The position numbers were made by a program, and so were the translations under genes. Shown here in pieces: positions 10,990 to 40,069 of a stretch of 64,000 nt of DNA; position 1 is the stretch's first letter, and each line of letters begins with the position of its first letter. The DNA is from Psilocybe cubensis (taxonomy: Eukaryota), in NCBI GenBank assembly GCA_017499595.2, contig CM038999.1:3100001-3164000 (forward strand), given 5' to 3'. The notes beneath the pieces were generated by a model. The model was not told the DNA's origin. It did not search any database and saw nothing but the letters and a program-made list of their open reading frames with translations.

Positions 10990-11161
10990 TTCTGGTTTCT
11001 CTGTTGCATTTGCTTTCTTCTCTCTCATGTGTATTACTATTGTCAACATACTTTCTGAGAACAAAATCTATTGAAATGAAGCGACTCCCAAAATAGAAAA
11101 GATAGACCCAATTAAGGAAATTTTGCGTGCCATAAGGTTAGGGTTAGAAGAAAGAAAAGTC

Positions 11162-11344
11162 AAAAAAGAGAGCCTGCCCAGCCAGAGTGGCCGAAGCAGG
11201 ACAGGAAAATATTGAGACGGTGCATGAGCCTAAGCCCATACAAACCGCAGACACCCCCTGAGGACATGGTCGCCGTGCTATGGGGGATTTCCACGGCCCA
11301 CAAACCCAGGTACTTGAAGGGGCTTATGCCATCAAGGTAAGTAT
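11162..11344 (-). ncRNA. U1-like small RNA gene, copy 1 (intact, with promoter); non-canonical internal loops
   Basis: Minus strand starts ATACTTACCT (the U1 5' end). nt ~10-24 can pair with ~115-133 closing a multi-helix domain, then a single-stranded AATATTTTC (Sm-site-like), a 3' stem-loop CCTGTCC...GGGCAGG and a T6 run. Body identical to the copy at 24326-24508 while flanks diverge. Confidence 0.7.
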
Positions 11345-11404
11345 GAGTTGTTCGGATGTCGAGGCATCGCTTATATATCATTCAGCCGTGCACGGACCAT
11401 TTGA
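11345..11404 (-). promoter_or_regulatory. snRNA-type promoter: upstream element TCAAATGGTCCGTGCAC (-60..-44), TATA (-34..-27), conserved -17..-1 block
   Basis: The same blocks at the same spacing recur at 31053-31112 with diverged spacers. Confidence 0.7.
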
Positions 11405-12457: not shown

Positions 12458-12467
12458 CTTGGTTGCT

Positions 12468-12473
<6 letters not shown>
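12458..12473. repeat. Left target-site duplication of LINE (cttggttgctgctctt)
   Basis: Identical 16-mer at 20603-20618; last TT is ambiguous with the poly(T) run 12472-12503. Confidence 0.92.
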
Positions 12474-12504
<31 letters not shown>

Positions 12505-12706
12505 GTGGAGCGTTGATGTTACTGTTGTAACACCAGTCCTTTCGTGCGCGACTTTTCGACACTCAGGACCCGCTAGTTGATTTCAAGGACAATTGACCTT
12601 AACGAAAATATCCAGACCGTATTCACCCTGGGGAAATGCGTTTAAGCACTTTGTGTGGGACTCAAGACTAAACCGTTGATGGATCCTCCTGCGTGCCCCC
12701 CCATAC

Positions 12707-15700
12707 TTACCTTCCACGCCTCCTTCCATCAATCCTTCGCGGTTCAATACCCACTAAAACCCCAAAACTGCCTACCCAATCTTTGGGTAGGTTCTCCTCA
12801 TCCCGGAGCGTGCCTCGCCACGTGTTAAATACCAGCTTTTTTCGCAAGGCTTTCTTACCGTATTTGGCTCGCGTCAGTACGGAGTCCAATTCTAACCTCA
12901 GGTTAATGGTTTTCACCCATCTATTATGGACTTCGATTCCTGATACCGGTATCCCGTCCTCATTCTGGATTACTGCTTCGCAACGTAGTTTCCATATTAG
13001 ATATGCTGATTCCGTCATCAAGATTCGGAGCAGCCTTGCTTCCCCCTCAGCATTGTCCACCCGTTTGCCTTTTTTCTTATCACGTTTCATCGGTCTTGTG
13101 CTTAATATTATCTCTTCTAGAGTTGGTTCCGGCCAGGGGCTGCTAGTCCTCATACCCCAGAGTTCCCTCGCTAGGTTCCATATTTGGGCTCGTCCCGATG
13201 TCGGACACTTCTCAATGATGTGAGTCATCGACTCCGTCTCTCTTCCACATTGTTTGCATACGCTACGTTCCTGGAATTCTAGCCCAAAACCTGGTTTTCT
13301 CCAGTTATTTCCTATCATATAACCATCGTGAATCACCATCCATAGGAAGTTACGGATTGTTCTTGTTACATCCTTGTTCCTAATAGCCTTCCAGATTAGG
13401 CTGGTTTTATAATCCAGTTCCTGATTTTCTTTGGCAGCCGCCTCAATTTTTGTCAGGTTAGTCCGTGTTTGGTGTCGTTCCTCATAGTTTCTCATCTTGT
13501 GCTTACGGACTAGCTTGTATGCTTCCGATTGTGTCAGATTTGCTATGTCCGCTCCGGATAGATTCCACCCATTCATGATTTGTGTGTCTGGTTCAGCAAC
13601 TACTCCTTGGAGGACTCCAATGTCAGCTAGTTTTTCAGCATCCTTATCTCGTTGGTTTGGTTCACGATTTTGTTTCCACAGTATAATAGGTTCACAGCTC
13701 AGATGTCGCAGACTAGCAATTGTCGCTCGGACAAGTTTCGCGTCGGGCACTCCAAGGTAATCTCTTCGTTCATTTTTCATTGCATCAATTGTCAAATCCT
13801 TGACTGTGCCAATAGAATCAATTTCTACTGTTAGTTTTTCAGAGCTCGCTGTGCGGTCCGCAAGCAGTTTGATTGCGGTCAGTTCGCCTATTCTATCACT
13901 TTGTTCTGGGCTTGTTGACAGTTTGAGTGATAGGTTTTTTGGGCTACCGTCGCTAACAAACACACCGATTCCGGTTGTTTGTGTCTCCTTGAATGAGATA
14001 GTACTTATTGTTGCATGTATCGTGGTTATCTCCCCCTCGAATTTAGCTTGTATCTTTGGTAATGTATTGTTCGGCTCTCCCTCTGTGAATACTCTGAAGA
14101 TATTTGCAAGCGATCCACTAGTTTCAATGGTCCTACTAAATGGATATTTTGTAATGGGTTTGTCCTCGTTTGCGTATTGTTCACCTATCGGACGAGTTTG
14201 TGGGTGCCATTTTATGGTAAGCGTTTCTAGCAGTTCTTTTGCCTTTTCAAAACATTTATTTGGGTTTTCACATCCTAGTGTATTGCGTGCTGTGGTGCAT
14301 TCGTTGCATTCGCACCAGCTATCTCTTGTGTGGTCCACACTTTCAAGTACGTTGCGGATCCTTTCAATTTGTCCAACACTGATTGCATTATGGTTGTTTC
14401 TTATGCATTTACTGGCACCACTGTGATTCAGCCGTCGCAGCCTTGGAGCCGCTGCCTTATGGTACCACAAAGGCATTTCTCGTCTTATGTCTGACGACAC
14501 TTCAAGGCATTCAATGCGGGTATTATATTCCGCTGCAATTTTGATAAGCCTTCTTACACTGGGCGCTGCCTCCGTCCCTTGCATGGTTGTCCATGATTGC
14601 AGAAAAATATTTACATGCGCTTCAGGCGGTACATTTTTCTCCGTTTTTGGTACTTGTTTTGACATCAGGGCATCCGCAACAACTGCCCATGTTGGTCTGT
14701 CTGGTCCAAAGCTCAGGTACGACTTTAGCCACATCAGCTCAATAGCCTTGTTTCGAGCGTTAATATCCAGGACTGCCCTTCCTCCAGCGGTGATTGGCGA
14801 GTATATAGTTTTTTCATTTACTGGTATTAATTTCCGATTGTCCCAGAAAAACTGGCGCACACGTTTTGTTATACGTCTTTCAACCTCCACAGGCATACCT
14901 TGGACTGTTGTCAGGTACTGTGTCATCCCGCCTATTACCATCTGTATAATTAGGCGTCTGCCTTCCATCGTTGGGTGACTTTTCTCCCACCGTTCAAGAT
15001 TCTTGTCGATCTTTTCTAATACGGGTGCCCAGACATCTACCGTGTCAACATTATTACCTACCCATGCTCCCAGGATCCGGACGGCTTCGCCATCTTCTGC
15101 TATATGCATATTTGCTGGTATAGGTTCCCCATTTTGTTTTGTCGTACGTGTTTCTATTACCCTTGCTCTGTATTCCGATGTTCCTATTGGGATGATTTCG
15201 GTTTTCTGAATATTAAACTTGGCCAGTGATGCTTTACACCATTCATCAAGTATAGCTTGTAGGTCATTGAAGTCATCTTTCTCCGACAAGAAGGTTGTCG
15301 TATCGTCTGCAAACAGGTTGGCAATTAGTTTTTCTGTATTATTGGGGATCTTATATCCCTCTAGGTGTGATTCTCGCAGTCGGGCAGCTAAAGGTTCAAT
15401 TGCCAGATCAAAGAGCAGACACGACATAGGATCTCCTTGTCGCACACCCCTAGTCACATCAAAGCACGAGCTAAGGTATCCATTCACCATTACTTTTGTT
15501 TTTGCATGCTGATAGAGCGATTGAATAGTTGTAATAAATTTTTCCGGGATATTGTAGGTGCGTAGTGTTTTCCATAAGTATTCATGGTCTATCTTATCAT
15601 ATGCCTTTTCCTGATCTAGGGCTATTATCAGGCCATTCTGCTCTGTCGCCTCGGCATACTCGATCATCATCTCAATCAGTTTTGTTTGATCTGCTATTTT

Positions 15701-18040
15701 TCTGCCAGGTACAAAGCCAGCCTGGCTTTTATGTAGTAGGTTGGGTGCTACCTGGGCAAGTCTCATTGCTAGTACTTTTGTGAAGATTTTGTAATCTGTG
15801 TTGAGTATTGTTATTGGTCTATAGTTAGATATCTCATTGCGATCGTTCTTTTTATATAGTGGGCACATCCACCCATCCGAAAAACCGGTTGACGAGTCAA
15901 CTCCGTGTTCTTCTATATCGTTAAAGACGGCGGTTAGTAGTCCCACTATATTGAATTTTTGAGGGCTCATATCTTCTTTGTCAACATTCACTTTGTCAGT
16001 TTCATTTTGACGCTTAGCTTCTGTTTCCAGGTATGTTGCATTTAGCTTTTTCCACAGCTCATAAGTAATTCCGTCGGTTCCCGCAGCTTTGCGTAGCTGA
16101 CCTTTTGAAAGTGCCATGCTAACTTCAGCGGCATCAATTTTTTTCTCAAGGTCGCTGACTTGATCGCGTCTCACTCTTGTTGTGATGGCTCCGAGGACTT
16201 TGTCTGTACTAGCCTCCCTAAGTCTTGGATCCACATCGGTGCCTAGGTTCTGTAGGTTTTCGTGGTAATCCCTTGCCAGCTCTGCCATCTTTGGAGAGTG
16301 TTTTTCGTATGGGTCGCCAATCATTGTGGCATGTGCACCTTCCGCTTGTGCAACTGGCTTTCGTAGTGCTCGTATTACATCTCTGGGTTTGTTCTCTTTA
16401 TTAATGTTTGACCAGTATGTACTGATTGTTTCCCCTTCCAGTCTATTCAAAGCTGCAACATTGGTTCGTCGTTTTTGGTGGCGGCTAACCTCCAGTTTTT
16501 TAATTCTGGTTCGTATCTCCGATGCCTTTCTGTTTCGTGTTTCTTCGTGTTCATCACTATTATTAACCCTATCAAGCTCTGTTTCTAGATCTCGTAGTTG
16601 ATTAACAACTTTAGGCACTATGGCCCTGTCTCTGCTTCTTGCTTTTTCCATGATATCCTTTTTGAACGATGCAAACAGTCTCTGGACATTTTTTGTGTCT
16701 GTCCTTTGGTGTGAAATAGCTTCTGCTCGTTTCATTGTTTCTAAACCTTTCTTGTCAATATAGTCCAGAAGGATCCTATCCTTTAGCAGATATGAGGGTA
16801 ATGCCCATCTCCCTTTGCCTACTTCTGGTGTATTTTCGTTAACAACCTTGACTGACACCATGCGGTGGTCAGCATTGGGAACACCACTCGTACAGATTGT
16901 CCATTCTCGTGCCGTTTCCAAGATTCTTTGCTTGACATAGATGCGGTCAATTCGTGACTGTGATGCCCGACCATTCTGTTGTTGGAATGTATAGGCCTTA
17001 GAGTCCGGGTATGTGTCTCTCCATCCATCGTGGAGTCTTGCCAGCGTTTTGAGCTCATCAAACGCCTCTTGTATAGTATTAGTATCTCTATCACTTTTCA
17101 TAGGGCATCGGTCTATCTCACTTTCCACCATGTTAAAATCTCCCAACATTATGTCAGGGTACGCAGATGGGTGTTGTTCTAGGTACCTCTTTATTTCTAC
17201 CCAGAAGGGGCCATTTTCTGGAGTCTCGCATGGAGCATAGACGGCCAATATAGTAAGCTCATCCTCTCCATGCCACTTAATTTTGACGCTCAGAGCCCTT
17301 CCTTTAGTTATTTCAGTTGATTTAGCATGTGTTGCCTCGATTAGTTGTTTGTTGATTACTATTGCTACCCCGCCCTTTCCAGTTGGGTTCTGTGGGTCCG
17401 AGCTATAGAAAATTTTCAGTCGACGGCCAAATTGTCTCTCAATCTCCCGACATTTTGCTTCGTCCATGTGGGTCTCTTGTAGGGCCAAGATTGCGATTTT
17501 ACGTTCACGCATCTCCTGATTTATGTGTAGCCATTTATTATTCGGATGATTTGAGTTAGCACTTCCAAATCCCTTCATATTTAGCGACGCTATACCAATA
17601 GCGGCTTTTTTGAATGCTCTATCTGCATTCCGGCGTGCTCTACGGTTTAGACCATTTATATTAGCTACCATCTGGGTAGTTGCTTGAGACGGGCGCTCAT
17701 GGCGGTCCCCATCTTGAGCCATATCCATAGGCTCCCCCACAGTCTGTGGGTTGTGCTGAGAACTTGTCCTCAGGCTTTGCGCAGTCTGCGCTACCAGGTA
17801 TGCATCTGGGTTTTGTGTAGGTCCGTTTTGGTTCCCACCATCGCCCCTGTTCTCAGTCAGGCGATCTGTCACAGTCTGTGAGTCAACGGTGGATGATCCA
17901 CCTCTAGGTATCCGCTGATCATAATCTGGGTGCCCAGTAGTCGTCTGGCTGCACATCCCAGACTCCCTTTGGCTCCCTAGAACTCCATTTCCATAAACTG
18001 CCGCCCGATCCCTAAGGATGGGCCCAATGGAGGAGGCCAC
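12707..18040 (-). CDS. LINE ORF2: AP endonuclease, reverse transcriptase, degenerate RNase H, CCHC zinc finger (first ATG at 17956)
   Basis: APE motifs IASLNMKG, LALQETH, LGDFN, SRIDRIY, ADH; RT motifs NYRPITILNTDYKIF, LDQEKAYD, GVRQGDPMS, LFADD, ILG; Zn finger CKQC..ETESMTHIIEKC. Confidence 0.95.
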   Translation of the reverse strand: MASSIGPILRDRAAVYGNGVLGSQRESGMCSQTTTGHPDYDQRIPRGGSSTVDSQTVTDRLTENRGDGGNQNGPTQNPDAYLVAQTAQSLRTSSQHNPQTVGEPMDMAQDGDRHERPSQATTQMVANINGLNRRARRNADRAFKKAAIGIASLNMKGFGSANSNHPNNKWLHINQEMRERKIAILALQETHMDEAKCREIERQFGRRLKIFYSSDPQNPTGKGGVAIVINKQLIEATHAKSTEITKGRALSVKIKWHGEDELTILAVYAPCETPENGPFWVEIKRYLEQHPSAYPDIMLGDFNMVESEIDRCPMKSDRDTNTIQEAFDELKTLARLHDGWRDTYPDSKAYTFQQQNGRASQSRIDRIYVKQRILETAREWTICTSGVPNADHRMVSVKVVNENTPEVGKGRWALPSYLLKDRILLDYIDKKGLETMKRAEAISHQRTDTKNVQRLFASFKKDIMEKARSRDRAIVPKVVNQLRDLETELDRVNNSDEHEETRNRKASEIRTRIKKLEVSRHQKRRTNVAALNRLEGETISTYWSNINKENKPRDVIRALRKPVAQAEGAHATMIGDPYEKHSPKMAELARDYHENLQNLGTDVDPRLREASTDKVLGAITTRVRRDQVSDLEKKIDAAEVSMALSKGQLRKAAGTDGITYELWKKLNATYLETEAKRQNETDKVNVDKEDMSPQKFNIVGLLTAVFNDIEEHGVDSSTGFSDGWMCPLYKKNDRNEISNYRPITILNTDYKIFTKVLAMRLAQVAPNLLHKSQAGFVPGRKIADQTKLIEMMIEYAEATEQNGLIIALDQEKAYDKIDHEYLWKTLRTYNIPEKFITTIQSLYQHAKTKVMVNGYLSSCFDVTRGVRQGDPMSCLLFDLAIEPLAARLRESHLEGYKIPNNTEKLIANLFADDTTTFLSEKDDFNDLQAILDEWCKASLAKFNIQKTEIIPIGTSEYRARVIETRTTKQNGEPIPANMHIAEDGEAVRILGAWVGNNVDTVDVWAPVLEKIDKNLERWEKSHPTMEGRRLIIQMVIGGMTQYLTTVQGMPVEVERRITKRVRQFFWDNRKLIPVNEKTIYSPITAGGRAVLDINARNKAIELMWLKSYLSFGPDRPTWAVVADALMSKQVPKTEKNVPPEAHVNIFLQSWTTMQGTEAAPSVRRLIKIAAEYNTRIECLEVSSDIRREMPLWYHKAAAPRLRRLNHSGASKCIRNNHNAISVGQIERIRNVLESVDHTRDSWCECNECTTARNTLGCENPNKCFEKAKELLETLTIKWHPQTRPIGEQYANEDKPITKYPFSRTIETSGSLANIFRVFTEGEPNNTLPKIQAKFEGEITTIHATISTISFKETQTTGIGVFVSDGSPKNLSLKLSTSPEQSDRIGELTAIKLLADRTASSEKLTVEIDSIGTVKDLTIDAMKNERRDYLGVPDAKLVRATIASLRHLSCEPIILWKQNREPNQRDKDAEKLADIGVLQGVVAEPDTQIMNGWNLSGADIANLTQSEAYKLVRKHKMRNYEERHQTRTNLTKIEAAAKENQELDYKTSLIWKAIRNKDVTRTIRNFLWMVIHDGYMIGNNWRKPGFGLEFQERSVCKQCGRETESMTHIIEKCPTSGRAQIWNLARELWGMRTSSPWPEPTLEEIILSTRPMKRDKKKGKRVDNAEGEARLLRILMTESAYLIWKLRCEAVIQNEDGIPVSGIEVHNRWVKTINLRLELDSVLTRAKYGKKALRKKLVFNTWRGTLRDEENLPKDWVGSFGVLVGIEPRRIDGRRRGR

Positions 18041-18505
18041 ATCCTCTCCTGGTGCGACAGCCCGAGGTCCATTTCTCCAGCATCCTTGGGGTCTACCTAA
18101 GAGGGTAGTGTCTAATCCTGTATTGTTAGTAGGGTTAGTTGCACAAATAAAAGTTACCTAGAGAGGACAGGCCAAGCCCAGTCCAGGTCTGATGGTTTCC
18201 CGACGTCTCCGAGGTGTTGTAGAACACTACTCTTCAACGTAAGGATTGCCTGTATGTCCGGCGCGACCCCATCAGTAGCCTTGACTCTTCTTTTAAAATG
18301 CCTTCGACTTTCCTGTTCTAAGCAGTAAATTCGGTGTCCGGCGTTTGCAGAGGCTACTCTATATTTAGTGCAGACTCCTCCGACTTCTTCTAAATCTACA
18401 TTTAGGCCCAGACTGGGTTTTCAGCTCTTTGACAAGCATTAAGATGGATGACACAATTTATTAACATCACTATTGAGACATATTATACATGTACGAGGAC
18501 ATATG

Positions 18506-19846
18506 CTAGCCCCGGCGTTTGCTCACAGGTACCTTGGTCCAACCTCCACCAGAGCTTTCTCTGTTGCTTCCTCGCTGGTGGGGCGGCTTGCCTCGTCCCC
18601 GACCACCGCGACTCGGTCCAGAACCTCCGGCACTGGTTGCCTCTGCTCCCCATTCTTCCTCCTTTTCAACCTTTGCATTGTTTTTGGGGCCGAGCCAGTC
18701 TTCAATTGCTGGAAAAGGGCATTTATGGGCAGGGTGGGTGTCGGCCTTGCACCAGATACAACCAACAAAGGTGCGGTTTACGATGAGCTTGTGGCCGTCC
18801 GGGGTAACAAAGGGCTGCGCTTTCTTGATGGAAACAGGTTTTGCTTTCCCTTTGTTGGTGACTTGTACCGATGCTTGACCCGGTGCCCGCATGCAGGAGA
18901 GGAGGATCTTGTGGTCTCGAATATTTGCTGTCGCAGGCTTGCCTGTCAGCTGGAAGATGGGATTTGGTCGACCCTGAGCATCCAGCGCGTCGATGAAGGT
19001 GAGTTCGAGTGTCGAGGTGATTTTGTCGACCTGCGCACCCACAGAGAGGCTAGCGTTGCCGGCTGCCGCAATGTGGCGGCTAATCTCTGAGCGAACGTTC
19101 AGCTCTTCCCAGAAGCGCTTCTTGATAGTCCCCATGACTTGCTGTCGAGCACGCTTGGTATCTTCAACGGCATCCCCGGTAATATTCATGATAACCCAGC
19201 TCTGAACGGATGTGTCAAAGGCAATTGCATTGAACGTGATGACAGGGGAGATTGCGAAGGTTTGTTGCCATAGGAGGAAGCTGCGCATCTCTGCACTCGC
19301 CCGCTTGAGGATCATTGGCCATGGTCCTTCGAAGCGACGCCTCTTAGAAGATTCGTTTCGAGGGATTGGTTTCGCCAACTGGATTTCATCGTTGCCTTCA
19401 AAGCCCAACGATTTTAGGAAGGCCACTATCTCGCGATTGCATGTTGGGTTCTGATCGTAGTACCACTTCCCGGCGCCAAAGGGGACGATAGCTATGTGAT
19501 TCGCGGGATCCCTACTGATTTGCTCCACCTGTTCCTCAGCCATATTGTGCACAAGTTGTTCATAAGGGATTACAACCCTTGGGAAGTGAGCTCTCGTGTA
19601 TTGAGCACTGAGAGTGGGGGGGAGCGTGGGGATTTCGCCTCTGCCAGCAAGCTGGAAATGTGGATTCATTTCACGCTCAGCGGGGGGCGTATCAACGTCG
19701 AATGGGTCGGGGAAGGTAAATGGTGCGGGCAGGGTGCCGTTCAACATCTCTTCATCTACTTCTTCTTCCGATGCCCCGCTACCTCTGCGCCGTCTTTTCC
19801 TGCGCTGGGCTTCTTCCTCGTTAGAGGGGGTACGGTCGTTCTTCAA
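18506..19846 (-). CDS. LINE ORF1 nucleic-acid-binding protein (track start is TTG; first ATG at 19747)
   Basis: Basic NLS-like RRKRRRR, zinc knuckle CIWCKADTHPAHKC (CX2CX4HX4C), RGG-rich tail; lies upstream of ORF2 inside the TSD-bounded element. Confidence 0.85.
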   Translation of the reverse strand: MKNDRTPSNEEEAQRRKRRRRGSGASEEEVDEEMLNGTLPAPFTFPDPFDVDTPPAEREMNPHFQLAGRGEIPTLPPTLSAQYTRAHFPRVVIPYEQLVHNMAEEQVEQISRDPANHIAIVPFGAGKWYYDQNPTCNREIVAFLKSLGFEGNDEIQLAKPIPRNESSKRRRFEGPWPMILKRASAEMRSFLLWQQTFAISPVITFNAIAFDTSVQSWVIMNITGDAVEDTKRARQQVMGTIKKRFWEELNVRSEISRHIAAAGNASLSVGAQVDKITSTLELTFIDALDAQGRPNPIFQLTGKPATANIRDHKILLSCMRAPGQASVQVTNKGKAKPVSIKKAQPFVTPDGHKLIVNRTFVGCIWCKADTHPAHKCPFPAIEDWLGPKNNAKVEKEEEWGAEATSAGGSGPSRGGRGRGKPPHQRGSNRESSGGGWTKVPVSKRRG

Positions 19847-20498
19847 ATTCGACAGTTTGGAAGGGTGAGTGTGCCACTACTATGACACAGGGCAGTCAAG
19901 ATATGGGGAGATTCGTGGGCGGGGGCGTGATTGGGGATCTTTTATATGCCTATTTGGTGCCACTCAGTGAAAGGGCCGTACGAGTCTTTGTAACTATTGC
20001 TTTGCTCGCCTTTGTTCCATCTGATTCGGTTGTGACTTAATACTAAGTGCCACCGTGGCATACCTCCAACTTCGTATTCCAGTGGCACACGGTGTCTGGG
20101 TCGGGGGCGCATAGCCCGCCTTCTGCGATGGTTCCGAGGCTGGGTTTCGCAATGTTGAGCTTGAGGGGAGCAGTAACGAAGTCGTTGGTGTCACCAAGCT
20201 CGGTTCGTTAGTCATTGTTTACACGTGGGTTTACCGCGTACAGTTCTCGTGCGGAGACCACTGTCCACTGTCCACTGCAATAATCATAGCATAACGTGGT
20301 GTATTCAAGTTCGCGAATAATACACAGATAGTATATAGTTTGCGGTATGCGTGGACTAATAACGTCTATATGGCTCTGCGCCACTTTCTGCACGATTCCT
20401 CAGGATATCGACAGAGGCCACAGACTGTGGCCGGGTCTGCCTGAGGCAGTCCCGTTACATCGCAGTCTGCGATGGTTTAACCTCACACTGAAGTAGAG

Positions 20499-20602
20499 GA
20501 CGTCCATTGGCTTCCCTTGTCAGAGACAAGGTACTAGTCCCTTGAGCCACGGAGAGGCTGGACGCCGGGCCACCATAGATGATGGTGGTCCTTGTTCAAG
20601 GG
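20499..20602 (-). ncRNA. HDV-like (delta-like) ribozyme fold at the LINE 5' terminus (putative)
   Basis: P1 CCCTTGA/TCAAGGG, P2 GGCGTCCA/TGGACGTC, P3 GCC/GGC with L3 TCTCCGT, P4 CCTTGTC/GACAAGG, J4/2 GCCAA, all in HDV nested-pseudoknot order. Confidence 0.6.
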
Positions 20603-20618
20603 CTTGGTTGCTGCTCTT
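20603..20618. repeat. Right target-site duplication of LINE
   Basis: Identical to 12458-12473. Confidence 0.92.
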
Positions 20619-23436: not shown

Positions 23437-24325
23437 AACCTGGAAGACAAAAAAAAATACAGCAACCTCTTTCGCATTCACTCACTGCGATTTGTATCTT
23501 TTTTATATCTTGATACCATTTCACACTTTGCTTTGTTTTATTTTTTTTTGCAGTGTTGACATAGTATTCTATACCCCACCAAGTAACGACCCACATACGC
23601 ATATCGACGACACCTTCTACCGACATCATTCCCCCACATCCTGTCATTCCCACTACCTTTATACCTAATATTTCCAACTGTTCATTTACCTATTCCCACT
23701 GCACATTTCATATCCGATATATCCTACCCAATTTTACCCCCACAAAAATCCACCCGTGTATTCTTTATCCATCTTCTGTTTTTCCTTTGATTTTCGACAT
23801 GTATACGACGTGCGCGTAACATGTATTTTTTAGTTTTGTGTACCATATGTTTACTCTACCTCGCGCCGGCTTGCTCCAACCGTGGATAGATGTGTTTTTG
23901 TTATGTAGTGTCGGGCCCATTACCGCTGTTCCATCCCCGTTTTCTTGTGTCACTACTACCAAAAACCTTGACTTCTCTTGAACATTTTTACTTTTGTAAA
24001 TTATTGATAATACTCTATCTAGTTACGCATTAAAATCGCAGTAATTGAATGGAATTGACCTTGACTGGTGACTGAATTGTTATCGCAGAAAGTGGATTTG
24101 CGAAGATACAGTATTTGCTCCTTCTGGCAGTTGTGTACTCCCACACATTACACGCCACCTGAACAGTGTGCATCTTAACATTTGGTACCGAACTGGATGC
24201 ATTAAGGCAGCCTATTTATTATTTCACACGAAATGCACACAAATTTGTAGTTGTTTTACCAAAAAAAGATATATTTGTAGCCAATAAATGTGTACATAGG
24301 GTTAGGGTTAAAAGAAAGAAAAGTC

Positions 24326-24508
24326 AAAAAAGAGAGCCTGCCCAGCCAGAGTGGCCGAAGCAGGACAGGAAAATATTGAGACGGTGCATGAGCCTAAGCC
24401 CATACAAACCGCAGACACCCCCTGAGGACATGGTCGCCGTGCTATGGGGGATTTCCACGGCCCACAAACCCAGGTACTTGAAGGGGCTTATGCCATCAAG
24501 GTAAGTAT
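24326..24508 (-). ncRNA. U1-like small RNA gene, copy 2 (body intact, separated from its promoter by the Ngaro insertion)
   Basis: Identical to 11162-11344; its upstream sequence resumes at 31053. Confidence 0.7.
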
Positions 24509-24813
24509 AAGATATATTTCGCTCGGATTAAATTGCACTTTTTCGGAATGTGCTAAATTTGAGTAGAAGTGAAAGGAGGAGAAGGTGACAGAATATCCGA
24601 GTTATCTGATATTCCGTGGGTGCGTAGGGCTTTGGCGGGTGGTCAGGAAAGACCAAGTGAAGGTCACGAGAAATGACCGGATTCGAAGTGAGACACGCAA
24701 AGCGCGAGTCGTGAGGAAACGAAAGCGAGGAGAAAGGTTTAGCCGCCAAAGGCCTGAGCGCTTGGATCGAACCACGTGGAAATCGCAAACGAGAACCAAC
24801 GGTGGCAGTACCA
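24507..24813 (-). repeat. Ngaro split direct repeat B2
   Basis: Identical to 25152-25458. Confidence 0.95.
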
Positions 24814-24851
24814 AACACTGGAAAAAGGAAAGAAAAGGGAGAGGAGGGTGG

Positions 24852-25153
24852 GCTCAAAAGAAAAATCGGAGGCGAGTCGAGGGGAAAGACGAGATGAGAC
24901 TGGACGAGTCTGAAGACGAGCCGGTAGGGGAGAAAAATACGAGGACAACTTTTATTATATAGATGTACAGAAATTAAAGAATCAACAGAAGAGACTGGGG
25001 AGGTATGACAGGTGAGACCTGACAAGTGTCAGGTTCAGGAACCGGAAGACGTTAAGACGATCATTAAAACAGAGAAGACAAAACTCAAATAAGCAATCGT
25101 CATCCTCGCTGCTATCTTATCCATAGATGAGTGCTACGCACTCATCGTGGAAT
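24852..25153 (-). repeat. Ngaro split direct repeat A2
   Basis: Identical to 30751-31052; abuts B1 through the shared AT (25152-25153). Confidence 0.95.
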
Positions 25154-25458
25154 AAGATATATTTCGCTCGGATTAAATTGCACTTTTTCGGAATGTGCTA
25201 AATTTGAGTAGAAGTGAAAGGAGGAGAAGGTGACAGAATATCCGAGTTATCTGATATTCCGTGGGTGCGTAGGGCTTTGGCGGGTGGTCAGGAAAGACCA
25301 AGTGAAGGTCACGAGAAATGACCGGATTCGAAGTGAGACACGCAAAGCGCGAGTCGTGAGGAAACGAAAGCGAGGAGAAAGGTTTAGCCGCCAAAGGCCT
25401 GAGCGCTTGGATCGAACCACGTGGAAATCGCAAACGAGAACCAACGGTGGCAGTACCA
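25152..25458 (-). repeat. Ngaro split direct repeat B1
   Basis: Identical to 24507-24813. Confidence 0.95.
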
Positions 25459-25682
25459 GACGGAGCGCAAGCTCACCACCAACGCCGTGGGTTCTCGGGC
25501 CACAAGGAAGACCCAAGCAGAGCTGAGCACCAATGTTAGAAGAGGACGGACGTTGATATCAAACCAGATGTCAAGAAAATAAGCATGATTTAATTGAGTG
25601 AACACAGGATAAGTTTATACCGGAATAAAGTAGCGAGAAGGGAAATATTGCAGCAGAGAGTAGGTAAATAAAGTACAATGGT

Positions 25683-27557
25683 CTATAAGTTGAGAGAAGC
25701 AGCATTGGAGAGCGAGGATTGCGAGATGTTACAGTTGATGCGGAATTGTTCGACAGAAGCGGAAACATTATCTAGGTTTGATTTGGAATATGCAGCAGAT
25801 GTACAGGATGGGATGATTTCAGCCATACGGCGCCAATAAAGAAGGAAAGCGAGCGAGGTCCAGCCACCGGTGGCGGCCACAACCTGGAGAGAAAGAGATA
25901 AGAGATATGAAGGGAAGGAGATGAAGAGAAATACCTCAGGAGGGACACCGGCAAGGAGGAGGGTAACCGCACCACCAATGCGGAAGGAGTGGCCGGATAT
26001 GTGAGCGAGGTTAAGACGGTCCCACACTTTGCACACAAATTGCAGAAAAGTGTGTTTGTACAAGTGGGCCCAACCCCCATTGTTGGTGCGGTAAGCGAAG
26101 AGAGATGATAAGGGAGGAGGATTTCTGTTGATAATCATATGGTTGAGAAGAGCAGAGACAGGGCACAGAGCATCTCTGCGGGCAGTGATGATGATATCTG
26201 CGCCCTCCTCGTGTGTGGTTTTGGTCCAGGGGATGTGGAAACTAGCCGAGACGGCAGAACCATTGATATAGCGAAAGTTTATGAGAGAGTCGGAGGCGCA
26301 AACGTTGAGCAGTGGAGAGAAGGAGGAGGCAGACTTGACAGTGGTTTCCCCAAGACGACGACAGCCGAAAAAGGTAACAAGGGCACAAGCCCAAACTGCC
26401 GCATCGAAGGGTTTTGAGATGTCGATGGAATTGCGGAGGGCAAGAAGATGTTCGATGGAAACCGGAGCACGCGGAGGACGCTTGAAGGCTACACCAGCCT
26501 TACTGGCTGCTTTCCGTGCAAGAGACAGCCATTCGTTGTCTCCGTGCCAATCAGCCCCTTTGAGGACATGCCAAGCTCTGACACCGGCAAGCCAGGATTT
26601 GACTGTATTGCCAGAAACGCGACCGGAGGCCCAGTCAACAAAGGCAGTAAGGGTAACGATGGATGCGGGCATGCGGGAAGGCTCGGAGATGGAAGATTCG
26701 TCGCAGAATTCATGAAAACGTTTGAGACCTGCCGCATAGGTGGATTTTGAATTATCAGCGAGGGCCCGTGCCACGAGGTCGTAAGCCCGGTCCACTACAG
26801 CTGGGGGATGAGATGAGGACAGGTCCATTCTGTGAGACTGATCAAAAGAGGAAGTCCAAGAAGTGAGGCGAGCAGCAGCAGGAACGTTGGGGCGGAAAGG
26901 ATGAGATGATGATAAAGGGTTTGATGAAACAGGAGGAAGGTTATTTAACACGGGAGGTGAAGAGACCTTAGCTAACGAAGGGGAACAGGATGGTGAGGGA
27001 AGGGGTTGTGAAACTGGAGAAAGTACTGGAATCTGAGGGTTTAAATAAGAAGAAGGGGATCCGGGGGGAAGCAGGAAAGGAACAGGGCGAGGGTGAAACT
27101 TTTTGGAAGAAGATAGAATTGGAAGTGAAGAAACTTTAGAAGGGAAAGAAGAAGAAGAGCGGCTACGACGAGGTTTACTAGAACGTACAATTTTAGAAGA
27201 AGGGGGGTCAGAAAGCAAAGAGGAAAAGGGATGAGATTGGAACTGTGAAATGGGGATGTTTGATAGCGACACGCGGCGCGGAAGGGAAGTCGAGGAAGCG
27301 GACTCCCCACACGTGGAGCATCGGCCTTCCCGAGGCCCTTTATGCGAACAATGCATTGGGCAGGAAAGAGGAGCGGAGCTCGCCAGGCAGCGAGAAGCGA
27401 ACCTCCAATTCAAAGCCGAGAGGACCACCCAATCCGCGCGAGAGGGGGTCAGCAGGATTCTCTTTGGAAGCAACGTAGGATAATTCTGGAACAATATAAA
27501 TGGAAGAGAGGACAGCACAAGAACGACGGATGGAGAGGTTGATGTGAGGGTTAGCAC
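25683..27557 (-). CDS. Tyrosine recombinase of the Ngaro element (start uncertain; 51-nt intron 25884-25934)
   Basis: SAM-like N-domain ALADNSKSTYAAGLKRF; catalytic motifs FFGCRRLGE, IPWTKT, GHSFRIGG, GGW, LLYWR. Confidence 0.92.
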   Translation of the reverse strand: MLTLTSTSPSVVLVLSSLPFILFQNYPTLLPKRILLTPSRADWVVLSALNWRFASRCLASSAPLSCPMHCSHKGPREGRCSTCGESASSTSLPRRVSLSNIPISQFQSHPFSSLLSDPPSSKIVRSSKPRRSRSSSSFPSKVSSLPILSSSKKFHPRPVPFLLPPGSPSSYLNPQIPVLSPVSQPLPSPSCSPSLAKVSSPPVLNNLPPVSSNPLSSSHPFRPNVPAAARLTSWTSSFDQSHRMDLSSSHPPAVVDRAYDLVARALADNSKSTYAAGLKRFHEFCDESSISEPSRMPASIVTLTAFVDWASGRVSGNTVKSWLAGVRAWHVLKGADWHGDNEWLSLARKAASKAGVAFKRPPRAPVSIEHLLALRNSIDISKPFDAAVWACALVTFFGCRRLGETTVKSASSFSPLLNVCASDSLINFRYINGSAVSASFHIPWTKTTHEEGADIIITARRDALCPVSALLNHMIINRNPPPLSSLFAYRTNNGGWAHLYKHTFLQFVCKVWDRLNLAHISGHSFRIGGAVTLLLAGVPPEVFLFISFPSYLLSLSLQVVAATGGWTSLAFLLYWRRMAEIIPSCTSAAYSKSNLDNVSASVEQFRINCNISQSSLSNAASLNL

Positions 27558-30500
27558 TGCGGCCCTTGGTAAAGGCGCCTATAGTGCCTTGATTATCTGA
27601 GTGAATCAGGAGGCGGATGTTGGATAGAGGTAAGCCCTCAATGATGTAGATGAGGAGTTCAATAGCGATGGTTTCCAGCCAACAGATGTCGCGTCGGCCA
27701 ACCTTCCAGGAAGAGGACAACTGGAAGGCCGCCCATTTCCCATCAATAACAATACCAATGCCCCAGGAGGTGCTGGCGTCCACGAAGATCTGTCGATCAA
27801 CGACGGGACCAAGCGGTGAAAGGAGACGGGTGATGCCCACAGAGGATAAAATGGGAATCCACCAACTGACGTCTGTCAAAACCGATGGAGGGGGGTAACG
27901 GCTTGCGTATTCATTGTCATTAAAGGAGGCAGCGAAGTTAGAGAGGGAAGGGAGGTGTGAACGACCAAGGGGATATACAATGGTAATGTAGCAGAGAGAA
28001 CCGTGCAAACTCTCCACCTGACTGAGTCGACACCGATGGCCACTGAAATTGTCAAGGAAGTGACGAGCGCGGGCGAGGAATTTTAGGCGCTTAGGATCGG
28101 CCAACGCAACTGTGTGGTTGGCAAAGTCCCAGACCAGGCCCAAAAAGATAGTGGAGGAGGAGAAAGTGCGAGTGCCCTTGGTGGGATGCCAAGGGACACC
28201 TAGGTCACTGACATGCGACATCATTGAGTCCCAATCGTAGTCGTAGCGGAAGGCTCCGTCCACAAAGGGGCCAGAGAGGGAGGGGCTGCGAAGGATGTTG
28301 AGGTCATCCTCGTACTTCAGGATAGGCTTGACGCCAGATGCAATCCAGATATCAACTAGAGCATTGGCAATCATGCCTGCATTGGAACTGGCGCAAGCAG
28401 CACCGAAGGGATGAACATGATCGATGTAGAACTCGTCTTCCCCAAGACCTTGAACAACAAGCCATGGCTTGTGGTCTGGGAAGACAGGGCATGTGCGGTG
28501 GAATTTTTCAATGTCTACCGTCACCGCCTGAGTGCCCGGGGGGGCCATAGCAACCTGAAGAAGGTATCAGAGAGGAAGAGGGAAAGTCAAGATAAGATGA
28601 AGTAGGAAGGGAAGCAAAGAGATGAGGGAGTGCATTGTGCGGATAGAGGAGAAAGGGAAAGGTGGAGGAGGAGGGAGGGGAGGAGAAAAGGAAGGGATGA
28701 AGGGAGGGGAGGGGATGAAAGGAGAAGGAGGGGATGGAGGAGAGGAGGATAGACGTACGATGTCAGCCACGCGGACGGCAGTGTCAAAGCGTGTCGGAAA
28801 ATCGGATTTACGGATGAAAGAGTTCACCGATGGAACTTGGGAGGTAGCCTTGGAGAGATTGCGACAAATACGAATTTTGTCGGGCTCTCCAGGAGCTTGA
28901 GGTTGGATTGCAACAATGAGAGGGGAGGATTGGAAAGGTCCGCGGAGGATTTTTTCAATGAGATCTCTGGGGAAAGGACCAGTCATACGACCAGCAGAAA
29001 CCTCGTCATTGATGTAGGCCGAAACCTCCGCAGGAAAGAGAGAACAAGAGGGATGGTTTTTTAGGATGTGGGTGGAGGAGAGAGGAGGCATGGGACCAAG
29101 AGGAAAGCCGGATGAAAGGTTGCGAACAAGGAGTGGGTAAGTTGAGGAGAGGTTGAATTTTTTGAGAGCGGAATGAAAGGCAGCGGGTGAGTAGGGAGTG
29201 ACAATGCGCGAAAAGATATTGGGGAGAGTGTGTAAAGAAGGAGAGAATGGGGGGCGGACATGAATGCGAGAGGAAAAGTCGGGATAAAAAAGGCGGGGAG
29301 GAGAAGAGAAGAAAGATGAATTAGTTGTAGGCAGGTCTTGCCCGACAGGTGAAGGAGAAAGCGTGATGGGATTTAGAACCACAGAAGCAGCAGATGTGGG
29401 AACGGGCAGTGCCGTGTCCGCATGGGGTAGGGTTGTTGGGGCCCCTGATGTTAAAGGAAAGACAGATTTCTCTGTTGTCAGGAGCAAGGAGTTTCCCATC
29501 TTGGGAGTGGGCCCAGGCATTCTTACCATCTGGGAACTTAGCCGGGACTTTGTCTTTGGGATGGGAGCCGAGGGAGTGACCGACCTCTGCACAAAGGAGG
29601 CAGATAGGTGGGCCGGTAGATGACCTATTGCCTGATTGAAAAAGAGTGTTGGAGGAGGAATTGCCAGAGCGGCGATTAGAGGAGAAGGATTTGAAACGAG
29701 ATACGGACTCTTCGAGTGAAGCAAGTTTGGAGGAGAGGGCTGCCACCTGAGATTGTGCAGCCTGGGCCTGTCTGTACTCCGAGATAGCATGGTTAAACGC
29801 GGTCTCGTAGTCAAGAACAGAGAAACGTTGAAGGAAAGTGTGAGTATCACGACGCAATTTGAACTCTGCCACCTTCCATGCCGGATAAAGGGCGACAGAA
29901 TCAGGGCGAGAGCTCCAGAAAGAAAAATGACCAGTCCAAATGGAAATCCACTCATCATCAGAAGCGCGCTCCCTCTGAAAGCGGGTATATTGATCGGCAG
30001 CTTGCATGAAAGAACCAAAATCAAGGGAAAGCTCTTCCCCCAATTTGGCGGTAAGCTTTTCGATGTCGAGGATGTAGAGAGCTTTCGAGTCTGGAGAAAT
30101 TGAATTGGACTTCTTGATAGGAAGGCTGGCAAGGTTGTCAATGATGTAACGGAGACTTTTTTGAGTGAAAAAGGGAAGAGGGAGATTAGCCTGAGCTTTT
30201 TCCGTCTGGAACATGATTTCTGGAAAAGCAATGACGGTAGGAGCCATCGGATCACGAATAGAAAGGGACGAGCCTTGCATGCATCTGCGCTTGGCAATTC
30301 TGTCCTCAGCAGAGGAAGGGAGGTCTTTGATGGAAGAGTCCTCGATAGATCTTTTCTGTTCTCTGGCAAGGGAGTCCTGTTCAGAGAGCCAGGCAATGAG
30401 ATAATCAGGGATTTCATCTTTATCCAGATATTTTTTAGCAATAGCAGGAATTCTGAGCTGAGCCTCGTCATCGGGTGAAAGAGAGATAACGGAGGCCTCG

Positions 30501-30582
30501 GGGGATCCGGGCATAGGAAAAGCCGCGGGATCCAGACTATGATTAGCAGTTTTGGTGATGCGCTCGAGATTTTTTGCCACAA
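27340..30582 (-). CDS. Reverse transcriptase/RNase H of the Ngaro element (conserved part starts ~29240; 204-nt intron 28555-28758; start uncertain)
   Basis: GPFQSSPL, KIRICRNLS, VDIEKFHR, HPFG, YEDD, FLG; RNase H FVDAS, WLE, HSDN, NPADPLSRG. Confidence 0.9.
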
Positions 30583-30745
30583 TGGCCTTGTTGCGAGCCA
30601 GTTTCAGAGGCAGAGGCAGAGATTTTAAGACAGCATAAGCAGCGGGAACAGCACGGGTAATGTGCGCTCTGGGAGGATTAGCAGGCGGCGCTGGGACGGG
30701 AGACGGTGCGCGAGAGTCGTGAACGGATTGGCCGGCTTCAGACAT
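29321..30745 (-). CDS. Gag-like ORF1 of the Ngaro element
   Basis: ATG just inside of repeat A1; coiled coil followed by Cys/His motifs CLLCAEVGHSLGSH and C..FN...C.H....HICCFCGSKSH. Confidence 0.85.
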   Translation of the reverse strand: MSEAGQSVHDSRAPSPVPAPPANPPRAHITRAVPAAYAVLKSLPLPLKLARNKAIVAKNLERITKTANHSLDPAAFPMPGSPEASVISLSPDDEAQLRIPAIAKKYLDKDEIPDYLIAWLSEQDSLAREQKRSIEDSSIKDLPSSAEDRIAKRRCMQGSSLSIRDPMAPTVIAFPEIMFQTEKAQANLPLPFFTQKSLRYIIDNLASLPIKKSNSISPDSKALYILDIEKLTAKLGEELSLDFGSFMQAADQYTRFQRERASDDEWISIWTGHFSFWSSRPDSVALYPAWKVAEFKLRRDTHTFLQRFSVLDYETAFNHAISEYRQAQAAQSQVAALSSKLASLEESVSRFKSFSSNRRSGNSSSNTLFQSGNRSSTGPPICLLCAEVGHSLGSHPKDKVPAKFPDGKNAWAHSQDGKLLAPDNREICLSFNIRGPNNPTPCGHGTARSHICCFCGSKSHHAFSFTCRARPAYN

Positions 30746-30750
30746 GGCGA

Positions 30751-31052
30751 GCTCAAAAGAAAAATCGGAGGCGAGTCGAGGGGAAAGACGAGATGAGACT
30801 GGACGAGTCTGAAGACGAGCCGGTAGGGGAGAAAAATACGAGGACAACTTTTATTATATAGATGTACAGAAATTAAAGAATCAACAGAAGAGACTGGGGA
30901 GGTATGACAGGTGAGACCTGACAAGTGTCAGGTTCAGGAACCGGAAGACGTTAAGACGATCATTAAAACAGAGAAGACAAAACTCAAATAAGCAATCGTC
31001 ATCCTCGCTGCTATCTTATCCATAGATGAGTGCTACGCACTCATCGTGGAAT
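30751..31052 (-). repeat. Ngaro split direct repeat A1 (5' end of element)
   Basis: Identical to 24852-25153. Confidence 0.95.

Positions 31053-36099: not shown

Positions 36100-40069
<3,970 letters not shown>

What the first reader, a model, noticed from the sequence alone, without database searches (positions are those of the whole stretch)
20499..20604. HDV-like self-cleaving ribozyme fold at the exact 5' end of a fungal L1-clade LINE
Seen (minus strand): CCCTTGA-[hairpin CCACCAT/ATGGTGG]-GGCGTCCA-GCC-TCTCCGT-GGC-TCAAGGG-ACT-AG-TA-CCTTGTC-TCT-GACAAGG-GAA-GCCAA-TGGACGTC. This is HDV order with a candidate catalytic C at 20510, a conserved L3 U..G, and a possible P1.1 of CT/AG. It begins at the TSD boundary. 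Known: HDV-like ribozymes process 5' ends of R2, RTE and L1Tc elements; I do not know of one in basidiomycete L1s. Caveat: P1 is non-canonical (10-nt 3' strand) and G+1 is missing or supplied by the flank.
Basis: partly seen in the sequence, partly recalled or inferred. Interest (0 to 1): 0.8.

Follow-up and report, generated by a model that had tools for sequence, protein, structure and literature searches.

The report
Self-cleaving ribozyme fold starting a mushroom LINE
The first 104 bases of an intact jumping gene (a LINE) in a mushroom-type fungus fold on paper into a hepatitis-delta-type self-cutting RNA whose predicted cut site is exactly the element's first base, a known trick of such elements that appears unreported for this group.

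Summary
Observation confirmed. On the minus strand an 8.1-kb LINE runs from C20602 to a 32-nt poly(A) tail and is flanked by a perfect 14-16-bp target duplication. Its first 104 nt (20602-20499) have the full HDV order: P1 of 7 Watson-Crick bp, a J1/2 hairpin (P1.2), P2 of 8 bp, a GC-only P3, a 7-nt L3 with U and G at the HDV positions, P4 of 7 bp, and C20510 followed by C-A-A next to P2.

With a pairing-strict descriptor it is the only hit in 128 kb. The three catalytic-base decoys give 0 hits, and 100 shuffles give 0.01 hits each. It starts on the element's first base.

New here:
- P4 is flanked by AGUA/GAA, a loop-E (sarcin-ricin) motif.
- The cleavage-site pair is C-G.

Both are marks of the validated fungal HDV variants of Li and Breaker 2017.

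Not shown: cleavage and covariation, because no fungal DNA collection was reachable. No Rfam model matches.

Verdict: very probably a genuine HDV-family 5'-end processing ribozyme and a new member of a known kind.

The parts
12472..20602 (-). Full-length non-LTR retrotransposon (LINE), 8131 bp including the poly(A) tail
   Evidence: The 5' end is set by the target-site duplication and the 3' end by a 32-nt poly(A) tail. ORF2 carries Exo_endo_phos, RVT_1 and zf-RVT domains.
20603..20616 (-). 5' copy of the target-site duplication (14 bp, or 16 bp if two preceding A are counted)
   Evidence: It is identical to 12458-12471.
12458..12471 (-). 3' copy of the target-site duplication, directly after the poly(A) tail
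12472..12503 (-). Poly(A) tail, 32 A
20596..20602 (-). P1 5' strand (n1-7). The predicted cleavage is 5' of C20602, which is the element's first base.
   Evidence: It forms 7 Watson-Crick pairs with 20539-20545. The P1 duplex energy is -9.5 kcal/mol.
20567..20595 (-). J1/2: a 4-nt linker plus the P1.2 hairpin. The hairpin core is 7 bp (20588-20582 with 20576-20570), extended by 2 pairs across a 1x1 internal loop.
   Evidence: Base-paired J1/2 domains activate large HDV-like ribozymes (PMC4908430, Results read).
20559..20566 (-). P2 5' strand (n37-44)
   Evidence: It forms 8 bp with one G-U with 20499-20506. The duplex energy is -11.8 kcal/mol.
20546..20558 (-). P3 (3 G-C pairs: 20558-20556 with 20548-20546) enclosing L3 (20555-20549, 7 nt, U at position 1 and G at position 6)
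   Evidence: A conserved L3 G pairs with an L3 U in a reverse wobble (PMC3774820, passages).
20539..20545 (-). P1 3' strand (n58-64), directly after P3 with no spacer
20536..20538 (-). J1/4 (n65-67). A65 can pair with U50 of L3 to give a one-pair P1.1. U67 can close the loop-E motif by pairing with G92.
   Evidence: Read from the sequence. The 1-bp P1.1 rule is met. The pairings are my inference.
20512..20535 (-). P4 hairpin (7 bp, 3-nt loop, 20531-20515) flanked by AGUA (20535-20532) and GAA (20514-20512), a loop-E / sarcin-ricin motif at the base of P4
   Evidence: Two of 1333 hairpins in the window carry this flank, against 0.09 expected. AGUA/GAA is a classical sarcin-ricin sequence (PMC1865062, passages).
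20507..20511 (-). G92, then J4/2: candidate catalytic C93 (20510) followed by C-A-A, directly before the P2 3' strand
   Evidence: The catalytic C is the first position of J4/2 in HDV-like ribozymes (PMC10879173, passages).
20499..20506 (-). P2 3' strand (n97-104), the 3' end of the ribozyme domain
18506..19747 (-). ORF1 (413 aa from the first ATG), with a C-terminal CX2CX4HX4C zinc knuckle and no Pfam match
   Evidence: The knuckle is my reading of the translation.
12707..17956 (-). ORF2 (1749 aa from the first ATG; the frame is open from 18040): AP endonuclease, reverse transcriptase and a zinc-binding domain

Best explanation
The first 104 nt of this LINE RNA form an HDV-family self-cleaving ribozyme, a nested double pseudoknot.

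Inferred mechanism:
1. Transcription starts upstream of the element, by read-through from neighbouring sequence, or the start site is imprecise.
2. The ribozyme folds co-transcriptionally. P1 pairs the element's first 7 nt with n58-64. P2 stacks on P3. P4 is extended by a loop-E motif.
3. C93 (20510) acts as the general acid/base and the RNA is cut 5' of C20602. This leaves a 5'-OH transcript that begins with the element's own first base.
4. Reverse transcription of that RNA to its end reproduces the ribozyme in every full-length daughter copy. This would explain why the insertion junction here coincides with the predicted cleavage site.

Shown: the sequence and pairing pattern, its rarity, its position, and the match to published variant features.

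Inferred: folding into the pseudoknot, catalysis, and its use in vivo. A combined internal-promoter and ribozyme role, as in L1Tc Pr77, is possible but untested.
For: 1. All HDV helices are present with zero-length P2/P3 and P3/P1 junctions, and C-C-A-A abuts P2.

2. It is the only pairing-strict descriptor hit in the window. The catalytic-base decoys give 0, 0 and 0, and 100 shuffles give 0.01 hits per 128 kb.

3. The hit starts on the first base after the target duplication of an element with intact ORFs and a 32-nt poly(A) tail.

4. Four features lie outside that strict descriptor. P2 is 8 bp rather than 6. P4 is 7 bp. P1.2 is a 7-bp hairpin. AGUA/GAA flanks P4, which is true of 2 of 1333 hairpins against 0.09 expected.

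5. Two of the three marks of the experimentally validated fungal HDV variants are present: a C-G cleavage-site pair and a loop E in P4 (PMC5640933). C1 and a single-pair P1.1 also occur in active L1Tc/ingi ribozymes (PMC3185411 and PMC4035085).

6. When the P1 strands are blocked, the best nested fold is exactly P1.2 + P2 + P3 + P4, at -36.0 kcal/mol. Adding the P1 duplex (-9.5) gives about -45.5, against -38.4 for the best pseudoknot-free fold. No pseudoknot penalty is included.

7. [quoted passage not shown]
Against: - No Rfam family reaches its gathering score. No HDV-type model reaches E<=10 on the 401-nt region.
- The nested fold energy is unremarkable: z = -1.85, and 6 of 200 shuffles fold at least as well.
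- P1.1 in the canonical register is a single A-U pair. The second position is a C/C mismatch.
- The cleavage-site pair is C-G, not the G-U wobble of HDV itself.
- The third fungal-variant mark, an extra nucleotide between P2 and P3, is absent as I read the pairing.
- The 5-nt words CCUUG and CAAGG recur five times in the domain. They allow competing pairings, and the nested MFE pairs the P1 3' strand with the P4 5' strand.
- The upstream flank at this locus can also pair with the P1 5' strand.
- The G-U-tolerant descriptor finds decoy hits at the same rate as real ones.
- My thresholds were set after seeing the candidate.
- No related copy could be obtained, so there is no covariation evidence at all.
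- The 5' UTR is about 855 nt long with several upstream ATGs, so an IRES-like role directly at ORF1 is not evident.
Confidence: 0.75

Rival explanations
1. The fold is a real, selected RNA structure at the LINE 5' end, but it does not cleave, or no longer cleaves. It could serve as part of an internal promoter, as a binding site for the element's proteins, or as a 5'-end protective or translation element. Alternatively this copy carries a decayed ribozyme.
For: - P1.1 is weak, with one A-U pair.
- The cleavage-site pair is C-G.
- J1/2 is long.
- Alternative pairings compete with the ribozyme fold.
- In L1Tc the same 77 nt act as promoter and ribozyme, and downstream sequence attenuates cleavage (PMC3185411, abstract and passages).
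- R2 protein binds its ribozyme region (PMC6765202).
Against: - The catalytic C, the C-N-R-A junction, the L3 U and G, and the loop-E flank are all intact. All are specific to the catalytic architecture.
- The ORFs, target duplication and poly(A) tail indicate a young copy with little time to decay.
- C1 with a 1-bp P1.1 is active in trypanosomatid ribozymes.
Confidence: 0.15
2. Chance resemblance. A GC-rich, repeat-containing 5' UTR happens to satisfy a permissive HDV topology, and the element's 5' end is set by an ordinary transcription start.
For: - Permissive descriptors hit about 5 times per 128 kb in both real and shuffled sequence.
- Decoy motifs with A or G at the catalytic position hit as often as C.
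- There is no Rfam match.
- The fold z-score is only -1.85.
- The descriptor was tuned after the fact.
Against: - With pairing quality enforced, the expected count is 0.01 per 128 kb and the decoys give none.
- The hit coincides to the nucleotide with the LINE 5' junction.
- The independent AGUA/GAA flank has a per-hairpin chance of about 7e-5 from composition, or 1 in 1332 empirically.
Confidence: 0.07
3. The copy is 5'-truncated or carries extra 5' bases, so the true element start, and any true processing site, lies elsewhere. The coincidence with the junction would then be misleading.
For: - LINE insertions are often 5'-truncated.
- The last G of the target duplication could in principle be shared by microhomology (R2 junction variation, PMC3774820).
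- Only one copy is available.
Against: A random truncation point landing exactly on the first base of P1 of the window's only strict HDV-descriptor hit is less likely than a genuine end. An 855-nt UTR and both ORFs are present.
Confidence: 0.03

Closest known systems
Fungal HDV ribozyme variants of Li and Breaker 2017 (PMC5640933): 230 representatives in 26 fungal species, with cleavage shown for Penicillium chrysogenum and Aspergillus niger constructs
   Same: Both have a C-G pair at the cleavage site and a loop-E motif associated with P4. The overall HDV double-pseudoknot order is the same, and the host is fungal (section 7 read).
   Different: No extra nucleotide lies between P2 and P3 as I read the pairing. 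A full 7-bp P4 is retained above the loop E. J1/2 is 29 nt with a P1.2 hairpin. The paper reports 'widely variable gene associations', and its main text contains no word beginning with 'transpos' or 'repeat'. Here the ribozyme is the 5' end of a LINE. The consensus figure, alignments and species list were not visible because supplements are closed, so whether basidiomycetes or LINE ends are among the 230 is unknown to me.
L1TcRz / Pr77-hallmark ribozymes of the trypanosomatid L1Tc/ingi LINE clade (PMC3185411, PMC4035085)
   Same: The ribozyme occupies the first nucleotides of a LINE with cleavage at +1. The +1 nucleotide is C, paired with G. GC pairs at the base of P1 have the C on the 5' strand. 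P1.1 is a single pair.
   Different: L1TcRz is 77 nt and this domain is 104 nt with a P1.2 insertion. A loop E is not mentioned for L1TcRz in the texts I read. The LINE clade and the host supergroup differ. Promoter activity is shown for Pr77 and untested here. I could not compare sequences because none was available from a tool.
R2, RTE and baggins HDV-like ribozymes of animals
   Same: All are 5'-terminal HDV-like ribozymes that free a non-LTR element RNA from a co-transcript. P1 is 6-7 bp, P2 at least 5 bp, P3 3 bp, with a conserved L3 G and a catalytic C (PMC3774820 section 16; PMC6765202).
   Different: According to PMC4035085, the animal and HDV ribozymes have the opposite orientation of the GC pairs in P1. 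R2 is site-specific in rDNA and is co-transcribed by Pol I. The primary paper on RTE and baggins (Ruminski 2011) is not held and I did not read it.
drz-Agam-2 type large HDV-like ribozymes with a structured J1/2 (P1.2) domain (PMC4908430)
   Same: A base-paired peripheral hairpin lies in J1/2, between P1 and an extended P2.
   Different: P2 is 8 bp here against 12 bp in Agam-2. The host and the sequence differ.

Membership tests
HDV-like self-cleaving ribozymes | Nested double-pseudoknot strand order: P1, J1/2, P2, P3, L3, P3', P1', J1/4, P4, J4/2, P2' | tested here: met
   All strands are found in this order, with zero-length P2/P3 and P3/P1 junctions.
HDV-like self-cleaving ribozymes | P1 of 6-7 bp beginning at the cleavage site, P2 of at least 5 bp, and P3 of 3 bp | tested here: met
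   P1 is 7 Watson-Crick bp, P2 is 8 bp with one G-U, and P3 is 3 G-C pairs. The criteria come from PMC3774820 section 16.
HDV-like self-cleaving ribozymes | L3 of 7-8 nt with the conserved U and G that form a reverse wobble | tested here: met
   L3 is 7 nt with U at position 1 and G at position 6. The criterion comes from PMC3774820.
HDV-like self-cleaving ribozymes | Catalytic C as the first nucleotide of J4/2 | tested here: met
   C93 (20510) follows G92 at the closed base of the P4/loop-E stack and is followed by C-A-A and then P2. The criterion comes from PMC10879173. Its catalytic role cannot be tested here.
HDV-like self-cleaving ribozymes | P1.1 of 1-2 bp between L3 and the nucleotides directly after the P1 3' strand | tested here: inconclusive
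   Only one pair, U50-A65, fits the canonical register. The neighbouring position is C/C. A one-pair P1.1 is active in L1TcRz.
HDV-like self-cleaving ribozymes | Purine-pyrimidine pair at the cleavage site (G-U in HDV) | tested here: not met
   The pair is C1-G64. This is the typical state of the fungal variants and of the L1Tc/ingi ribozymes, so it does not exclude membership of the wider family.
HDV-like self-cleaving ribozymes | Match to a curated covariance model | tested here: not met
   There is no Rfam hit at gathering score and no HDV-type hit at E<=10. Covariance models do not score pseudoknot pairs. By my recollection the Rfam HDV-type models are narrow.
HDV-like self-cleaving ribozymes | Mg2+-dependent site-specific self-cleavage that is abolished by mutating the catalytic C | not testable with these tools
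   This needs a bench assay.
HDV-like self-cleaving ribozymes | Covariation of P1, P2 and P4 among homologues | not testable with these tools
   There is no second copy in the window. The only open DNA collection is prokaryotic. It gave 3 loci, none with a usable homologous 5' end.
Fungal HDV variant (Li and Breaker 2017) | C-G base pair at the cleavage site | tested here: met
   The pair is C1-G64.
Fungal HDV variant (Li and Breaker 2017) | P4 partly replaced by a loop-E motif | tested here: met
   AGUA and GAA flank P4 in the orientation of a sarcin-ricin motif, closed by U67-G92. I could not see the paper's figure, so the exact placement in their consensus is unverified.
Fungal HDV variant (Li and Breaker 2017) | One extra nucleotide, usually C, between P2 and P3 | tested here: not met
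   A44 pairs with U97 and P3 follows directly. The feature would be met only if A44 were left unpaired.
5'-terminal processing ribozymes of non-LTR retrotransposons | The cleavage site coincides with the first nucleotide of the element | tested here: met
   P1 starts at C20602, the base after the target duplication.
L1-clade LINE | AP endonuclease + RT ORF2 and a zinc-knuckle ORF1, grouping with L1/Tx1 in an RT phylogeny | tested here: inconclusive
   The domains are present. The best PDB match is human L1 ORF2p at E 7.7e-53, against R2 at 3.6e-23. Some relatives are named 'Transposon TX1' by their sources. I made no phylogeny with Tad1, I or other clades.

The most novel reading that the evidence does not exclude
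The loop-E, C+1 type of HDV ribozyme may be the general 5'-end module of fungal LINEs. If so, the 230 'orphan' fungal HDV variants of Li and Breaker are LINE or SINE 5' ends. The module would also be shared by descent or transfer with the Pr77 promoter-ribozyme of the trypanosomatid L1Tc/ingi elements. That would mean an ancient, combined promoter-plus-ribozyme cassette defining LINE 5' ends across eukaryotic supergroups, including L1-type elements that are usually thought to rely on a promoter alone.
Probability: 0.25. Interest if true: 0.7.

Novelty: new member of a known kind. Interest (0 to 1): 0.5.

Why it matters
HDV-like ribozymes are the known way for promoter-less or read-through-transcribed non-LTR elements such as R2, RTE and L1Tc to define their own 5' end.

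- **Wider reach.** A well-formed example at the first base of an intact L1/Tx1-like LINE of a mushroom-forming fungus would extend this strategy to a new host group and LINE lineage.
- **A genomic context for known variants.** It would place the fungal loop-E HDV variants at retrotransposon 5' ends. They were published with 'widely variable gene associations'.
- **A link between lineages.** Through the shared C+1, it would connect them with the trypanosomatid promoter-ribozyme module.
- **Annotation.** It offers a sequence-independent marker for full-length LINE 5' ends in fungal genomes.

Tried and rejected
1. Rfam. The whole window at gathering score gave 0 matches. The 401-nt region at E<=10 gave only two weak, unrelated hits, nhaA-II at E=1 and mir-673 at E=5.9. 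Both were rejected as chance.

2. Nested folding alone gave z = -1.85 and is not discriminating.

3. G-U-tolerant descriptors.
- Twelve hits with L3 of 6-9 nt.
- Five distinct hits against 4.9 in shuffles.
- Decoy counts equal to real counts.
- I rejected these as evidence on their own and replaced them with the pairing-strict version.

4. Other copies in the window: no repeat family overlaps 12472-20602.

5. Related DNA.
- L001 holds a 5'-truncated RT fragment at the end of a chimeric high-GC contig.
- L002 is a 1.9-kb fragment.
- L003 is a 25%-identical LINE whose 5' end is tandem repeats with no HDV-like match there.
- None was usable for covariation.

7. G20603 would face A65 and cannot extend P1, and C+1 is normal in the two closest families.

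8. Papers.
- Webb 2009, Webb and Luptak 2011 and Ruminski 2011 are not held.
- One literature search was badly framed and uninformative.
- Searches for self-cleaving + non-LTR + Basidiomycota, and for HDV + ribozyme + Tad1, returned 0 papers.
- The search for HDV-like ribozyme + fungal returned 4 papers. By title and abstract none concerns a basidiomycete LINE, and I read only PMC5640933.
- The supplements of PMC5640933 (alignments and species list) could bear on novelty and were not seen.

Full report
**The element**

On the minus strand a non-LTR retrotransposon runs from C20602 to a 32-nt poly(A) tail at 12503-12472. It is flanked by a perfect 14-bp target-site duplication at 20616-20603 and 12471-12458, or 16 bp if two A are counted.

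ORF1 spans 19747-18506 and encodes 413 aa from the first ATG. It has no Pfam match but ends in a CX2CX4HX4C knuckle, which is my reading of the translation. ORF2 spans 17956-12707 and the frame is open from 18040. It has Exo_endo_phos, RVT_1 and zf-RVT domains.

A search with ORF2 residues 600-1300 found 1039 proteins at E<=0.001 among 8000 scored candidates. Of the best 120 listed, every one that a source names comes from an Agaricomycete: Tricholomella, Tetrapyrgos, Psilocybe, Pleurotus, Hypsizygus, Rhodofomes, Phanerochaete and others. Some are labelled 'Transposon TX1'. Identity is 58% at most over nearly the full region, and up to 65% over 75% of it.

The best solved-structure match is human LINE-1 ORF2p at E 7.7e-53, ahead of the R2 proteins at 3.6e-23. 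'Fungal (agaricomycete-type), L1/Tx1-like LINE' is therefore reasonable, but I made no clade phylogeny. Intact ORFs, a pure poly(A) tail and a perfect duplication indicate a young insertion.

**The observation**

I number the RNA from +1 = C20602. The first 104 nt contain the following:
- P1: n1-7 with n58-64, seven Watson-Crick pairs.
- J1/2: 29 nt holding a 7-bp hairpin (P1.2), which the MFE extends by two pairs so that only a 4-nt linker is left.
- P2: n37-44 with n97-104, 8 bp with one G-U.
- P3: three G-C pairs, directly following P2.
- L3: 7 nt with U at position 1 and G at position 6.
- P1 3' strand: directly after P3.
- J1/4: three nucleotides.
- P4: 7 bp with a 3-nt loop.
- G92, then C93 (20510), followed by C-A-A directly before the P2 3' strand.

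This is the HDV order with the HDV spacings.

**Is it more than chance?**

Topology alone is not rare. A G-U-tolerant descriptor finds 12 hits with L3 of 6-9 nt. With L3 of 7-8 nt it finds 5 distinct hits, against 4.9 +/- 2.4 in 60 dinucleotide shuffles.

Adding the L3 U....G rule leaves only the candidate, against 0.25 per shuffle. Following the decoy idea of PMC10879173, I replaced the catalytic C. Motifs with A or G there also hit once each, and T not at all. Those decoy hits have 3-6 G-U pairs per helix and a U-G-containing P3.

When pairing quality is required (at most one G-U in P1 and in P2, P3 Watson-Crick only), the candidate is the only hit. The decoys give 0, 0 and 0, and 100 shuffles give 0.01 hits per 128 kb.

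This one hit begins on the first base of the only full-length LINE in the window. I set the thresholds after seeing the candidate, so the numbers are indicative only. The positional coincidence does not depend on those thresholds.

The nested MFE alone is unremarkable, with z = -1.85 and 6 of 200 shuffles folding as well. If the two P1 strands are blocked, the best nested fold is exactly P1.2 + P2 + P3 + P4 at -36.0 kcal/mol. Adding the P1 duplex (-9.5) gives about -45.5, against -38.4 for the best pseudoknot-free fold. No pseudoknot penalty is included.

P4 is flanked 5' by AGUA and 3' by GAA, in the antiparallel arrangement of a sarcin-ricin (loop-E) motif, and U67-G92 can close it. AGUA/GAA is a classical sarcin-ricin sequence (PMC1865062, passages). 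Of the 1333 hairpins in the window, 2 have this flank against 0.09 expected. One is this P4 and the other is an unrelated G-U-rich hairpin at 40777.

Li and Breaker (PMC5640933, section 7 read in full) described 230 HDV ribozyme variants in 26 fungal species and showed cleavage for two of them. These variants differ from the general consensus in three ways:
- (i) a C-G pair at the cleavage site;
- (ii) a loop E partly replacing P4;
- (iii) an extra nucleotide between P2 and P3.

The candidate has (i) and (ii) but not (iii). The active L1Tc/ingi ribozymes of trypanosomatid LINEs also begin at C1, have the same orientation of GC pairs in P1, and have a one-pair P1.1 (PMC3185411 and PMC4035085, passages).

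A structured J1/2 hairpin is a known activating feature of large HDV-like ribozymes (PMC4908430, Results).

**Mechanism**

The mechanism is inferred. Transcripts that start upstream of the element fold co-transcriptionally and are cut 5' of C20602 by C93-mediated catalysis. This gives a 5'-OH RNA that begins with the ribozyme, which is therefore inherited by full-length daughter copies. The junction seen here fits that picture.

A repeat-flanked element with ORFs on the same strand lies about 3.7 kb upstream. Read-through from such neighbours is how RTE and baggins are said to be transcribed (PMC6765202). This is only a possibility here.

The 855-nt UTR has several upstream ATGs, which argues against a simple IRES-at-the-ORF role.

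**Against, and limits**

- No Rfam model matches.
- P1.1 is weak.
- The words CCUUG and CAAGG recur five times and allow competing folds.
- At this locus the upstream flank can pair with the P1 5' strand.
- There is no covariation evidence. The window holds no second copy. The only open DNA collection is prokaryotic and gave nothing usable. The metagenome and viral collections and paper supplements were closed.

**Novelty**

HDV-like ribozymes at LINE 5' ends and HDV variants in fungi are both published. In the held library I found no paper linking self-cleaving ribozymes with non-LTR elements of Basidiomycota or with Tad1. The main text of Li and Breaker contains no word beginning with 'transpos' or 'repeat'. 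Their species list and alignments, and the papers of Webb 2009 and Ruminski 2011, were not available to me.

I therefore class this as a new member of a known kind. One useful extra is that it places a loop-E fungal HDV variant at the first base of a LINE.

Noticed in passing
window 24295-31112 and 11131-11404: A mobile element of about 6.5 kb is flanked by direct repeats: 24507-24806 equals 25152-25451 at 100%, and 24847-25146 equals 30746-31045 at 99%. It has four long minus-strand ORFs (557, 402, 634 and 474 aa), none with a Pfam match. At 11131-11404 the sequences that flank this element lie next to each other (99% and 74% identity), like an empty-site paralogue.
   Followed up: partly
window 48053-52524: A roughly 3-kb segment is duplicated in tandem at 75-90% identity. 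It includes a short ORF that starts at about 49159 and 52221 with a hydrophobic, signal-peptide-like N-terminus. This may be a duplicated small secreted protein gene.
   Followed up: no
L001 1-12532: This contig is filed under an Actinomycetota MAG. GC drops from about 0.62 to about 0.47 near 9000, and the contig ends in a 5'-truncated LINE reverse-transcriptase ORF that is 40% identical to the window's ORF2. This looks like a chimeric assembly or eukaryotic contamination. Short ACGTGTC-type repeats lie near 9771.
   Followed up: partly
L003 1-300: A distant LINE (25% identity, ORF1 and ORF2 intact) lies in a contig filed under a Bacteroidetes MAG. It begins with three tandem copies of a roughly 59-bp unit. 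No HDV-like match lies at its 5' end.
   Followed up: partly
window 20631-20626 (minus strand, upstream flank): The flank about 25 nt upstream of the element is complementary to the P1 5' strand. In the MFE of the flanked RNA it pairs with that strand, and this could slow cleavage of read-through transcripts at this particular locus.
   Followed up: partly
window 20456-20393 (minus strand) and 20258-20277: Two adjacent GC-rich hairpins lie just downstream of the ribozyme. They gave only a weak nhaA-II Rfam hit at E=1, which I take as chance. A 7-nt unit is repeated 2.9 times further into the 5' UTR.
   Followed up: no
window 38066-39040 and 44725-47616: Host-gene fragments: a P-type cation ATPase / HAD hydrolase ORF and a RhoGEF-domain ORF. 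Both are probably exons of intron-containing genes.
   Followed up: no
window about 40777 (minus strand): This is the only other hairpin in the window flanked by AGUA and GAA. Its stem is G-U-rich and it has no HDV context.
   Followed up: no
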